DNA of 31,645 nucleotides from the IMG/VR virus record IMGVR_UViG_3300045988_013781, one strand, 5' to 3'. Made by a program: the position numbers. Shown here in pieces: positions 21,001-24,000 of the stretch. Every line of letters starts with the position of its first letter. Position 1 is the stretch's first letter. Source of the DNA: a virus. Lineage: Duplodnaviria; Heunggongvirae; Uroviricota; Caudoviricetes.

Positions 21001-24000
21001 CGCGCACGCGTGCATCATCCTGGCGGATCAGTAACGCTATATACTCCCCAAATTCGTAAGGCGCACGCCCGGGGCGACGCGTGGCACAGTTACGCTCCAG
21101 CATTTCAATTTCCTGAGCATCAAGCACAATCTCCAGCTTACGCACACCAGATGCAGCTTGTCTGGCTCTCTGAGCGGCTTTGCGCTCTGATGCTGATTTA
21201 GCCATTCTGATTTTCCTGCATCATGAGAAATACAATCATGGCGGCTCGGAGTGGATTATTCGCATGAAAGCAAATGTTCTCGGCATTAAAAACAGCTGAC
21301 CACTCACCGCGAGATTGGTGGCAGGTTAGACTGATTTTATTATCAACAATAATAGGCCATGCATCCGATGGATTATTGCAGTAGTCAGGTAAAGGGTTTA
21401 ATGGCTCAAAAGTTGTATCAGTATTTCCGTAATACCATTTGTTGGTGTTATTCCCTGATGTTTCCGGTTTACACGCCCAAAGGCCTTTAAAAATTATGTC
21501 TCCTACCATTCTGTTAATTTCAAAATCACTTAACTGTGAATAGTCCATCACTTCACCTCCTGCGGCGGCTCTGGTAGCGGCATCCAGTGAGTTACGTCAT
21601 CCAAGATATTTCCTGATAAATACGTGAAAGCTCTATATTTTTTGTAATCAATTGGATTTACAACCCAGTTCCAATATGCTGCCACGATTTCACCTTGACT
21701 AAATGCCAGTAACATTTTGGTGTCTTCCGGCATTAGATCACTACAGCTTATCCAACCATCCGGAGTTACCGGATAGTTGCCATTTACATCGAAGTTTGGC
21801 TCTGCGTCCTGAACCAGGAGGATGTAACCATTCTTGGCCGTATCAAGTTCTAACGCCTCAGTGACGGTGCCGAAATAGCGATTACCTAAATCAGCATCAC
21901 AAGTGCTTACATCAATGGAAACTTCCATGCCTTCGATTAATTCTGCCAAGTTGTAAGCTTGGCTTACAGGTTCGGCTTCCAGTTCTGCTATGCGCTTATT
22001 TGCTGCTTCCAGCTCAACACGCAGCTTCCCTACCGTTAGCGCAATTTCCTCGTTCTCCTGGTCGCGGCGTTTGATGTATTGCTGGTTTCTTTCCCGTTCA
22101 TCCAGAAGCGCCAGCACAGTAGCCGGATTGGCTGCGGCGATGAATTCAGCATTGGCCTGCTGTTCAGTTTGGAAATCTTCATCGAAACCGCTTTCAGGAT
22201 GCGCTCCTTCAATTCTGCAAATGGGAATATATCCAGCAACTTCACGATGAATTAGCGCATCATCACCATCAAATCGGCCCTTTCCATATTCGAGCGACCA
22301 CTCACCACACGTTGCTTTTTCTGCCTTAGCACGCAGTGCCTGATAATCATCTTGCTCCCTGGTTGCCTCCTTTGCTGGGCTTTCTAACTTCTGAGTGGTT
22401 GTATCAAAATCAAACAACTTAACCACGTCATCAAACAGGACATAATCGCCATCAGAATCTTCAGTCATGTCAGCGCCACAATCCTGACCGCACGAGTCGC
22501 AACCTTCCATATCAAGCTCGTATCGCTTCAGGTTTGCGATATTTGATAAATTCAGCGCCAGTACAGCCAGGTCATAAACCTCTTCGGCGGTATACCCTGC
22601 ACCATGCCCATACATTTCAATGCGGGATATGATTTCTTCTACCCGTTGTTTTGTGATCGTCATTTTTGCTCACCACTCTGTTCTTCCAGAAAAATACGCA
22701 TAGCCTCAAGCATCTCTTCGGTGTCATACGGAGACAGCTTGTCACGCAGGATGTGTTCAATGCTGTTAATGAACTTTCGGATTGCTTTGCGTTCAATTTC
22801 AGTCAGGAAAGCATCGGTGGCTGGAATGGGCTTTTGTGGTGATATAGCAATGCGAATTGTCTCAAGGTCTGGATCTGTTTCCGCTGCTGGCACCTTGATA
22901 TAACCCATCTGCACCCCATTCATGATGAATCTGCGACGGTCATCACATATCGCCTTCAGCCCCGCATTCTCCGCCGCCAGCGCATTAGCACGCGCCAGTT
23001 GCACTTCCAGTTGCGTTGCCAAATCGCTGAGCAGCTTTGCCACACTACGCATATCAACGGCACCACATTCTGCTTTCAGTTCCGAAGCCATCTCATGCCC
23101 GGCGGCAACTAACTCTTTGATATTACTTTCCATCTTTACCCTCGTTTATCCACATAACTTATTGATTACATTGATAACTAAAAAGATCGTCGATTCAGAA
23201 CTCTTCGATGTTCCAGCCACCACCTGCTTTCTTTGGCTTAACCGTTACCCCGATGATTCGGAACGGATACTGATCTGCGGCGACTTTGGTTTTCACCCTG
23301 GCGTCGTCGGTCCAGAAACCTTTCACTTCGTGCAGTTCCATCTCGCCGGTGGCGAGCATCACAGCAAAATCTGGCGTATAGAACGTGTTGTCAGCTAACC
23401 GCAGCTTGATACCCTCGAATCGATACCATGCGATTTCCCCTGCACGTTTACGCAGCTCAAGGTGCTGGCAATACGCAGATTCTGTTTTGTTCATCTGGCC
23501 TGTTTTGAGCCGACCAAGAGCCTGTATCTGTTTTCTCATGATTTACCCCTTAGGTAATTAAAAACCACATAAGACATGAAATCAATAGACGTTAGAACAT
23601 TTTATTACCCACTAGGTAATTACGTGGGCGTAAAAAAATGCGCTATCGCGCTGGTATTACTTGATAAATCCTGCCGCCTTTCCCCGCCTGTATTCCTCCA
23701 TCAGCCACTGCGCCGGTGTTATTCCCCCAAGGGTGGCGGCGTTAGGCATGCACCCGAAACTTCGCCCTGGTGGATGGTAAACGTCTCTCCCTGTGTCCGG
23801 AGGCGTACTCATGGGTTCTGGCTTTGCCTGTATGCTGATCACCGGATCGGGTATCTGCTGTCCGGAAGCCACCTTTTTCGCCCAATCATCGAGCAGCCTG
23901 CGCGCGTGTTTCTCAACCTCAATCTCGCTAAGCTGGCGCTGATACATTGCACGGCGGGTATCACATACGACCCAGTACATAACCGGGTGCCGCCACGGGA

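What the first reader, a model, noticed from the sequence alone, without database searches (positions are those of the whole stretch)
23543..23651. Terminator after the replication genes followed by a promoter region with two perfect operator palindromes
The P-like gene ends in a GC hairpin plus U7 (23632-23651). Two perfect TTACC-N5-GGTAA sites then lie 62 bp apart, immediately upstream of the DUF1064 gene. This indicates a separately regulated transcription unit (DUF1064, 157-aa protein, Ea22-like, DUF2591-like, 112-aa protein), analogous to a delayed-early nin-like operon but gated by operator sites.
Basis: seen in the sequence. Interest (0 to 1): 0.45.

Follow-up and report, generated by a model that had tools for sequence, protein, structure and literature searches.

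The report
Repressor-gated internal promoter of epsilon15-like prophage
The two palindromes are binding sites for the prophage's own repressor, flanking a probable internal promoter just after a weak terminator; this control module is standard in epsilon15/phiV10-like phages and partly annotated in public records, so it is real but ordinary.

Summary
The genes lie on the minus strand. The lambda-P-like gene stops at 23657, followed by a 4-bp GC hairpin plus T7 (23651-23632). Two perfect TTACC-N5-GGTAA palindromes sit at 23605-23619 and 23543-23557, 62 bp apart, and the DUF1064 start codon is at 23539.

The palindrome is not chance. It occurs 12 times in the window (0.5 expected), always in short gaps of the ORF map. 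These include the repressor/cro gap, the stretch beside the repressor gene and the region before terS.

The window is a Uetakevirus (epsilon15/phiV10-like) prophage. Its repressor is identical to the functionally tested ZX5 ORF21 and homologous to SPC32H Rep (PDB 5d50).

In 13 related phages and prophages all 20 half-site bases are invariant and none of the 10 spacer bases is. The 62-bp spacing is kept in 12.

The module aligns without gaps to the OL/PL module beside the repressor gene: terminator, operator, TTGA -35, 17 bp, -10, operator.

The epsilon15 RefSeq record already annotates a repressor site at this position, and phiV10 annotates the terminator.

Weak points: the hairpin is only -5.9 kcal/mol. 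This window's -10 (TTTAAT) lacks the key A. No binding or transcript data were available.

The parts
23657..24433 (-). Lambda-P-like replication gene, last gene of the upstream (PR-proximal) unit
   Evidence: ORF. Pfam Phage_lambda_P E=1.7e-55.
23632..23651 (-). Weak intrinsic-terminator-like hairpin GCGC-GAUA-GCGC followed by A+U7
   Evidence: Folded. Stem alone -5.9 kcal/mol. Stem 8/8 and T-run 7/8 invariant, loop 1/4, in 13 relatives. Annotated as a putative rho-independent terminator in phiV10. Not called by the 5-pair scanner.
23605..23619 (.). Distal operator (OpA), TTACC-CACTA-GGTAA; 17-mer ATTACC..GGTAAT at 23604-23620
   Evidence: Half-sites invariant and N5 variable in 13 sequences. 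The equivalent epsilon15 site 35906-35922 is annotated 'protein_bind repressor'.
23580..23585 (-). Candidate -35 hexamer TTGATT inside the invariant block CTATTGA
   Evidence: TTGA is invariant in 13 sequences. Same column as the TTGACA of PL in the gap-free 12-sequence alignment.
23557..23562 (-). Candidate -10 hexamer TTTAAT, 17 bp from the -35; its last T is the first T of OpB
   Evidence: Same position as AATCAT/AATTAT of PL. TAAATT in SPC32H was called by the scanner. The Klebsiella phages read TATAAA(T). In this window it lacks A at position 2 and was not called.
23543..23557 (.). Proximal operator (OpB), TTACC-CCTTA-GGTAA; overlaps the -10, the predicted start site and the Shine-Dalgarno of the DUF1064 gene
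   Evidence: Half-sites invariant. The junction GGTAA(A)ATCATG is conserved whether the next gene is DUF1064 or RuvC-like.
23195..23539 (-). DUF1064 gene, first gene of the downstream unit (then the 157-aa, 371-aa, 117-aa and 112-aa regulator-like genes, down to 20867)
   Evidence: Pfam DUF1064 E=3.7e-7. PHROG 190 'Holliday junction resolvase' E=7e-43.
25962..26546 (+). Repressor (Rep) presumed to bind the operators
   Evidence: 100% identical to ZX5 ORF21, which blocks lytic growth when overexpressed (PMC9782041). Full-length match to SPC32H Rep, PDB 5d50, E=4e-42.
26604..26680 (+). Paralogous OL/PL module: operators 26604-26618 and 26666-26680 (62 bp apart) flanking TTGACA-17-AATCAT (26638-26666), after the rep terminator 26567-26586
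25844..25906 (.). OR region between the cro-like gene and rep: sites 25844-25858 (1 mismatch, between -35 and -10 of the cro promoter), 25875-25889 (2 mismatches), 25892-25906 (perfect)
   Evidence: Same three-site layout in epsilon15 and SPC32H.
25507..25521 (.). Single operator (1 mismatch) just after the cro terminator (25555-25536)
20748..20817 (-). Same punctuation before terS: terminator GCCGCC-N6-GGCGGC (20817-20800), operators 20780-20766 and 20762-20748; the terS ATG overlaps the last operator
   Evidence: The operator pair before terS is also present in epsilon15, Tyrion, ZX5 and BUCT554.

Best explanation
This is an internal early transcription-control module of a Uetakevirus (epsilon15/phiV10-like) prophage.

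A short, probably leaky, intrinsic terminator ends the PR-driven unit (cro, small gene, DnaT-like gene, P-like gene). Directly after it lies a sigma-70-type promoter: -35 TTGATT at 23585-23580, a 17-bp spacer, and -10 TTTAAT at 23562-23557. It is bracketed by two 15-bp operators for the phage repressor Rep.

In the lysogen Rep occupies both operators. The proximal one covers the -10, the start site and the ribosome-binding site. The unit starting with the DUF1064 nuclease-like gene is therefore silent, and any read-through from upstream would also be blocked. When Rep is inactivated, which in this family is done by an antirepressor, this promoter fires together with PR and PL. The 'nin-like' genes are then expressed without an antiterminator.

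Status of each step:
- Shown here: the sequence elements, their non-random recurrence, their conservation pattern, and the homology of the module to OL/PL.
- Inferred: that Rep is the binding protein, that the hexamers are an active promoter, and that the hairpin terminates.
- Speculative: that one Rep tetramer bridges the two operators, which are 62 bp apart (about 6 helical turns).
For: - Motif frequency: 12 sites in the window against 0.5 expected. All lie in short gaps of the ORF map, at the immunity region and at unit boundaries.
- Relatives: 14-18 sites per genome against 0.5-0.75 expected in epsilon15, SPC32H, BUCT554, Tyrion and ZX5. Each has a perfect pair exactly 62 bp apart after the last replication gene, and a second 62-bp pair beside rep.
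- Footprint in 13 sequences: 20/20 half-site bases invariant and 0/10 spacer bases. Hairpin stem 8/8, loop 1/4. TTGA of the -35 is invariant.
- Paralogy: a gap-free alignment of six post-replication and six OL modules puts both operators and CTATTGA in the same columns. The scanner calls TTGACA-17-AATCAT there in the window's OL module and TTGAAA-18-TAAATT in the SPC32H post-replication module.
- Public annotation: epsilon15 RefSeq labels the equivalent upstream site 'protein_bind repressor'. phiV10 annotates the terminator.
- Repressor: identical to the tested ZX5 repressor and homologous to SPC32H Rep, which binds palindromic DNA as a tetramer (PMC9638917).
- Independent link of motif to repressor: an otherwise unrelated Pseudomonas phage has a repressor DNA-binding domain 39% identical, and its gene is flanked by TTACC-N4-GGTAA sites.
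Against: - The window's -10 hexamer TTTAAT lacks the near-universal A at position 2. Neither the window's nor BUCT554's module passed the promoter scanner.
- The hairpin has only 4 pairs (-5.9 kcal/mol) and shows no covariation because the stem never varies. It could therefore be something other than a terminator.
- No binding, footprint, transcription-start or RNA-seq data were available. The primary epsilon15 and SPC32H papers are not in the library.
- The cro-like protein may share these sites.
Confidence: 0.65

Rival explanations
1. Roadblock only. The two sites are Rep operators, but there is no promoter between them. Bound Rep, together with the weak terminator, simply stops RNA polymerase that has escaped from PR, in the manner of the mycobacteriophage L5 'stoperators'. 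During lytic growth the downstream genes are expressed by read-through.
For: - The -10 candidate in this window lacks the -11 A, and no promoter was called here or in BUCT554.
- The hairpin is weak enough to allow read-through.
- Operators sit at every unit boundary, right against start codons.
Against: - The CTATTGA block sits in exactly the register of the PL -35 in all 12 aligned modules.
- The scanner called a promoter in the SPC32H module.
- The Klebsiella versions read TATAAA(T) at the -10 position.
- A roadblock would not need two sites at a fixed 62 bp flanking conserved hexamers.
Confidence: 0.2
2. The palindromes are bound mainly by another protein, for example the 76-aa cro-like protein, the 112-aa regulator-like protein or a host factor, rather than by Rep.
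For: - No binding data were accessible here.
- In lambdoid phages Cro shares the repressor's operators.
- The cro-like protein matches a 'transcriptional repressor' PHROG.
Against: - The epsilon15 record attributes the sites to the repressor.
- The sites flank the rep gene in every genome examined.
- The candidate recognition stretch NLVNRW is invariant in six Reps that otherwise fall to 43% identity.
- A Pseudomonas phage sharing only the Rep DNA-binding domain has the same half-sites around its repressor gene.
Confidence: 0.08
3. RNA-level element. Each palindrome forms a small hairpin in the mRNA that hides the Shine-Dalgarno and controls translation of the DUF1064 gene.
For: The proximal palindrome embeds the SD and abuts the ATG. 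The same arrangement occurs at terS and at the gene starting at 17834.
Against: - As RNA the hairpins are only -3.5 kcal/mol.
- The arms never vary, whereas an RNA stem would tolerate compensatory changes.
- The same motif lies between -35 and -10 of the cro promoter, and it occurs beside genes on both strands.
Confidence: 0.03
4. Chance palindromes in AT-rich intergenic DNA.
For: None beyond the short length of the arms.
Against: - 12 observed against 0.5 expected, and 0 of 100 shuffles reached 12.
- The same enrichment is found in five other genomes.
- Positions and spacing are conserved in 13 sequences.
Confidence: 0.01

Closest known systems
Repressor-binding sites of Salmonella phage epsilon15 (RefSeq NC_004775; consensus ATTACC-N5-GGTAAT)
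   Same: - Same core sequence and same genus.
- Same dispersed layout: before terS, before the gp3 homologue, beside the repressor gene, and after the replication genes.
- The epsilon15 site 35906-35922 is the direct positional equivalent of OpA.
   Different: - The epsilon15 record annotates only the upstream member of the pair, not 35969-35983, and annotates no promoter there.
- The repressors are only 43% identical.
- The gene downstream is RuvC-like in epsilon15 and DUF1064 here.
SPC32H Rep/Ant lysis-lysogeny switch (PDB 5d50, 5d4z)
   Same: - The window's repressor matches 5d50 over its full length, E=4e-42.
- SPC32H has the same operator pairs at 35972/36034 and 33604/33666.
- SPC32H Rep is reported to bind palindromic DNA as a tetramer and to be disassembled by an antirepressor (PMC9638917; PMC9986798).
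   Different: - Sequence identity is 43% overall.
- I could not read the primary papers, so I do not know which operators were tested there.
- This window holds only a cut end of the small ant region.
Lambda OL/PL and OR/PR, and the tR2-nin region
   Same: - A repressor occludes early promoters through palindromic operators.
- Recombination and nuclease genes lie downstream of the replication genes and behind a terminator.
   Different: - No N or Q antiterminator is evident here. The downstream unit seems to have its own repressor-gated promoter instead.
- The operators are dispersed over the whole genome.
- The repressor has no S24 autocleavage domain (Pfam).
Multi-operator immunity systems: P1 C1 repressor and mycobacteriophage L5 gp71 'stoperators' (comparison from my own knowledge)
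   Same: One repressor with many sites spread over the phage genome, many of them in short intergenic gaps at operon boundaries.
   Different: - Those sites are asymmetric. Here they are perfect palindromes.
- Here several occur in fixed-spacing pairs (62, 48 or 18 bp).
- There are about a dozen per genome rather than 20-30.

Membership tests
Uetakevirus Rep operator (ATTACC-N5-GGTAAT) | 15-17 bp palindrome with TTACC/GGTAA arms and a 5-bp spacer | tested here: met
   Both sites are perfect. They have the same core as the sites annotated in epsilon15.
Uetakevirus Rep operator (ATTACC-N5-GGTAAT) | The genome encodes a Rep-family repressor and carries the same motif around that gene | tested here: met
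   Rep at 25962-26546 matches PDB 5d50 with E=4e-42. Sites lie at 25844/25875/25892 and 26604/26666.
Uetakevirus Rep operator (ATTACC-N5-GGTAAT) | Positional conservation in related phages, with arms conserved and spacer free | tested here: met
   In 13 sequences, 20/20 arm positions and 0/10 spacer positions are invariant. The spacing is 62 bp in 12 of the 13.
Uetakevirus Rep operator (ATTACC-N5-GGTAAT) | Direct, specific binding by Rep | not testable with these tools
   This needs EMSA or footprinting. The primary papers are not held in the library.
Sigma-70 promoter | -35 and -10 hexamers at 16-18 bp, with A at position 2 and T at position 6 of the -10 | tested here: inconclusive
   The window has TTGATT-17-TTTAAT, 9 of 12 matches but no A at position 2, and was not called. 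The homologous SPC32H site was called. The paralogous PL was called at 10 of 12.
Sigma-70 promoter | A primary transcript 5' end a few bases downstream of the -10 | not testable with these tools
   No transcript data were available.
Intrinsic (rho-independent) terminator | GC-rich hairpin directly followed by a U-run | tested here: met
   GCGC-GAUA-GCGC followed by A+U7. The stem and the T-run are conserved.
Intrinsic (rho-independent) terminator | Hairpin stable enough to release the transcript (usually at least 5 pairs) | tested here: inconclusive
   4 pairs and -5.9 kcal/mol, against -12 to -14.5 for the phage's other terminators. Below the scanner's 5-pair threshold.
L5-type stoperator | Asymmetric site that acts in one orientation on elongating polymerase, with no associated promoter | tested here: not met
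   The sites are perfect palindromes and flank conserved promoter-like hexamers.

The most novel reading that the evidence does not exclude
The exact 62-bp spacing appears at two paralogous modules, after the replication genes and beside rep, in every genome examined. It could be the DNA counterpart of the unusual Rep tetramer. One tetramer, whose two DNA-binding pairs are formed in trans, would clamp both operators and trap the promoter in a roughly 6-turn micro-loop.

Together with the recurring 'terminator, operator, promoter' punctuation, this would mean that Uetakevirus phages replace antitermination with direct Rep gating of each transcription unit. A review of the structure notes that the repression mechanism of SPC32H Rep 'has not been extensively characterized' (PMC9986798).
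Probability: 0.35. Interest if true: 0.45.

Novelty: new member of a known kind. Interest (0 to 1): 0.25.

Why it matters
It helps with annotation and with understanding this phage group. The module occurs in about one in ten complete E. coli genomes (529 of 5,426).

It indicates that the nuclease and 'nin-like' genes are held silent directly by the prophage repressor, not merely by a shut-off upstream promoter.

The conserved operator pairs give a concrete DNA target for testing how the tetrameric Rep of SPC32H-type phages represses transcription.

It does not reveal a new kind of system.

Tried and rejected
- Literature. The epsilon15 genome paper (PMC2698709), the phiV10 paper (PMID 19210675) and both SPC32H papers (PMC3807360, PMC4983836) are not held. 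I therefore could not confirm what is published about these operators beyond the GenBank annotation and secondary citations. Three further full-text searches found no operator mapping. The ZX5 paper has none either.
- Alternative promoter. A -10 at TAAAAT, directly after OpA (23604-23599), was rejected. There is no -35 or TG motif, and the upstream bases are not conserved.
- Mini-ORF. The ATG-TTC-TAA after OpA is not conserved in relatives.
- Second small hairpin. UACG-CCCA-CGUA at 23621-23634 is not conserved.
- IHF site. Checked by eye in the conserved TATTGAT block; no WATCAANNNNTTR match.
- Covariation test. I looked for a relative whose repressor recognises a different half-site. The most distant repressor homologue I fetched, from Pseudomonas phage PseuP_224, keeps the same half-site with a 4-bp spacer. 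This gave support rather than a covariation test.
- Technical limit. Several fetched loci were not copied to the script machine, so genome-wide counts used the DNA search instead.

Full report
**1. What is in the sequence**

The genes around the finding read on the minus strand.
- The lambda-P-like replication gene runs 24433..23657 (Pfam Phage_lambda_P, E=1.7e-55).
- Five bases after its stop codon comes GCGC-GAUA-GCGC, then A and seven U (23651..23632).
- Next are a perfect TTACC-N5-GGTAA palindrome at 23619..23605 and a second at 23557..23543. Their centres are 62 bp apart.
- The ATG of a DUF1064 gene is at 23539 (Pfam E=3.7e-7).
- The spacer and right arm of the proximal palindrome (TAAGGGGTAA) supply that gene's Shine-Dalgarno.

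**2. Is it more than chance?**

With at most one mismatch the palindrome occurs 12 times in the 31.6-kb window. The expectation is 0.50, and none of 100 shuffles exceeded 3. Eight sites are perfect. All 12 lie in short gaps of the ORF map:
- three in the gap between the cro-like gene and the repressor gene: 25844, 25892, and a 2-mismatch site at 25875;
- two just beyond the repressor gene (26604, 26666);
- one after the cro terminator (25507);
- the two of the finding;
- two directly before terS (20748, 20766);
- three more at 160, 17198 and 17815.

**3. What the window is**

It is a Uetakevirus (epsilon15/phiV10-like) prophage. The immunity and replication region is 97-98% identical to phages ZX5, HEMP4, TL-2011b and phiV10.
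- The 194-aa repressor (25962-26546) is 100% identical to ZX5 ORF21. Overexpressing ORF21 abolished free phage and cut lysis-gene transcripts by more than 99.9% (PMC9782041).
- It matches the SPC32H repressor, PDB 5d50, over its full length at E=4e-42.
- That protein has an N-terminal DNA-binding domain, a middle dimerisation domain and a C-terminal tetramerisation domain. It binds palindromic DNA as a tetramer and is taken apart by an antirepressor (PMC9638917; PMC9986798).

**4. Comparative evidence**

The same pattern is found 14-18 times, against 0.5-0.75 expected, in epsilon15, SPC32H, BUCT554, Tyrion and ZX5.
- In every one, a perfect pair exactly 62 bp apart lies between the last replication gene and the next gene: epsilon15 35907/35969, SPC32H 35972/36034, BUCT554 11580/11642, Tyrion 37265/37327, ZX5 16109/16171.
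- A second 62-bp pair lies beside the repressor gene in each.

I aligned 13 versions of the module, including Klebsiella phages, Salmonella PAT1 and an E. coli chromosome:
- all 20 half-site positions are invariant and none of the 10 spacer positions is;
- the hairpin stem is invariant (8/8) and its loop is not (1/4);
- the T-run is invariant;
- the block CTATTGA is essentially invariant: TATTGA in all 13, the leading C in 12;
- the junction GGTAA(A)ATCATG is conserved whether the next gene is DUF1064 or a RuvC-like resolvase.

The spacing is 62 bp in 12 sequences and 63 bp in one.

**5. Link to the repressor**

- The epsilon15 RefSeq record annotates seven 'protein_bind: repressor (lysogeny)' sites with the core ATTACC-N5-GGTAAT. 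One of them (35906-35922) is the positional equivalent of the distal operator here.
- The stretch NLVNRW in the DNA-binding domain is invariant in six repressors that otherwise fall to 43% identity.
- Pseudomonas phage PseuP_224 differs in its neighbouring genes (for example a DnaB-type helicase). Its repressor shares only this domain (39% identity), and its repressor gene is flanked by TTACC-N4-GGTAA sites.
- Direct binding was not testable here.

**6. Is there a promoter between the sites?**

A gap-free alignment of six post-replication modules with six modules from beside the repressor gene puts both operators and CTATTGA in the same columns. Both module types share one plan:
- a terminator with a T-run;
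- a distal operator;
- 19 bp;
- TTGAnn;
- 17 bp;
- a hexamer whose last T is the first T of the proximal operator.

In the module beside rep the scanner calls TTGACA-17-AATCAT, 10 of 12 matches (window 26638-26666). This is the PL-type promoter. In the SPC32H post-replication module it calls TTGAAA-18-TAAATT. The Klebsiella versions read TATAAA(T) at the -10 position.

In this window the hexamers are TTGATT (23585-23580) and TTTAAT (23562-23557). That is 9 of 12 matches but without the A at -10 position 2, so the scanner did not call it. BUCT554 was not called either. The promoter therefore rests on positional homology and conservation, not on a strong match in this window. If real, it is probably weak.

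**7. The terminator**

ViennaRNA folds the 4-bp stem. Its energy is -5.9 kcal/mol, against -12.3, -12.6 and -14.5 for the terminators after rep, before terS and after cro. The phiV10 RefSeq record annotates it as a putative rho-independent terminator. Its conservation, and the strong terminator at the same place in the paralogous module, argue that it is functional. It is probably leaky.

**8. Mechanism proposed**

The early-right region is punctuated by 'terminator, operator(s), (promoter), gene start' after cro, after the P-like gene and before terS. I saw no gene resembling an N- or Q-type antiterminator in the ORF map, although I did not search for one systematically.

Most likely each unit has its own promoter, held off directly by Rep. 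The module in the finding would be the one that controls the DUF1064 nuclease-like gene and the following 'nin-like' genes. The DUF1064 protein matches PHROG 190, 'Holliday junction resolvase'.

Rep on the proximal operator would cover the -10, the start site and the ribosome-binding site. It would block both initiation and any read-through. Whether a single tetramer bridges the two sites is speculation, suggested by the fixed 62 bp.

**9. Rivals**

- A pure roadblock without a promoter remains possible (about 0.2).
- Binding mainly by another protein such as the cro-like protein is less likely (about 0.08).
- RNA hairpins are unlikely (about 0.03). They are only -3.5 kcal/mol, the arms never vary, and the same motif sits inside the cro promoter.
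- Chance is excluded.

**10. Novelty**

This is an orthologue of an element already partly annotated in epsilon15 (one operator) and phiV10 (the terminator). The module is present in 529 of 5,426 complete E. coli genomes.

Several points are not in those records, and I could not find them in the accessible literature:
- the second operator;
- the fixed 62-bp pairing;
- the paralogy with the OL/PL module;
- the probable promoter.

I could not read the primary papers, so these points may already be published. I rate the finding as a new member of a known kind, of modest interest.

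Noticed in passing
window 17535-17611 (+): tRNA-Arg (anticodon TCT) between the packaging and head genes. SPC32H carries a tRNA-Arg at the corresponding place.
   Followed up: partly
window 160-174 and 322-528 (+): A perfect Rep site (TTACCGCAAAGGTAA) lies upstream of a 68-aa ORF that looks by eye like a truncated antirepressor N-terminus. The same 15-mer lies upstream of the ash and anti-repressor genes in ZX5 at 2043.
   Followed up: partly
window 17815-17829 and ATG 17834 (+): The one-mismatch site TTACCTTAAAGGTAT abuts the start of a 282-aa ORF of unknown function (PHROG 4780). The identical 15-mer lies upstream of the integrase gene in ZX5 (8026) and SPC32H (26960). 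One-base variants lie there in epsilon15 (26882) and Tyrion (28568).
   Followed up: no
window 23543, 20748 and 17815: Three operators embed the Shine-Dalgarno of the next gene and end 0-4 nt before its ATG (DUF1064, terS and the 17834 ORF). The GG of the right half-site doubles as part of the ribosome-binding site.
   Followed up: partly
L002 (epsilon15) 35969-35983; 33341, 33358, 33388: The epsilon15 RefSeq record annotates only 7 repressor sites. The proximal operator of the post-replication pair and all three sites between rep and the cro-like gene are perfect or near-perfect matches but are not annotated.
   Followed up: yes
L013 (Pseudomonas phage PseuP_224) 3922, 3961, 4823: A repressor whose DNA-binding domain is 39% identical to this one is flanked by TTACC-N4-GGTAA sites. 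The half-site is the same but the spacer is one base shorter.
   Followed up: partly
window 23195-23539 (-) compared with L002 35987-36451: The first gene after the module is DUF1064 in some phages (PHROG 190 'Holliday junction resolvase') and a RuvC-like resolvase in epsilon15, Tyrion and PAT1. The mosaic joint falls right after the conserved GGTAAATCATG.
   Followed up: partly
window 25488-25440 (-): After the cro terminator and the single operator at 25507 there is a TTGATC hexamer, 17 bp after the operator. It may be another internal promoter for the small zinc-finger-like gene and the replication genes. No second operator is present.
   Followed up: no
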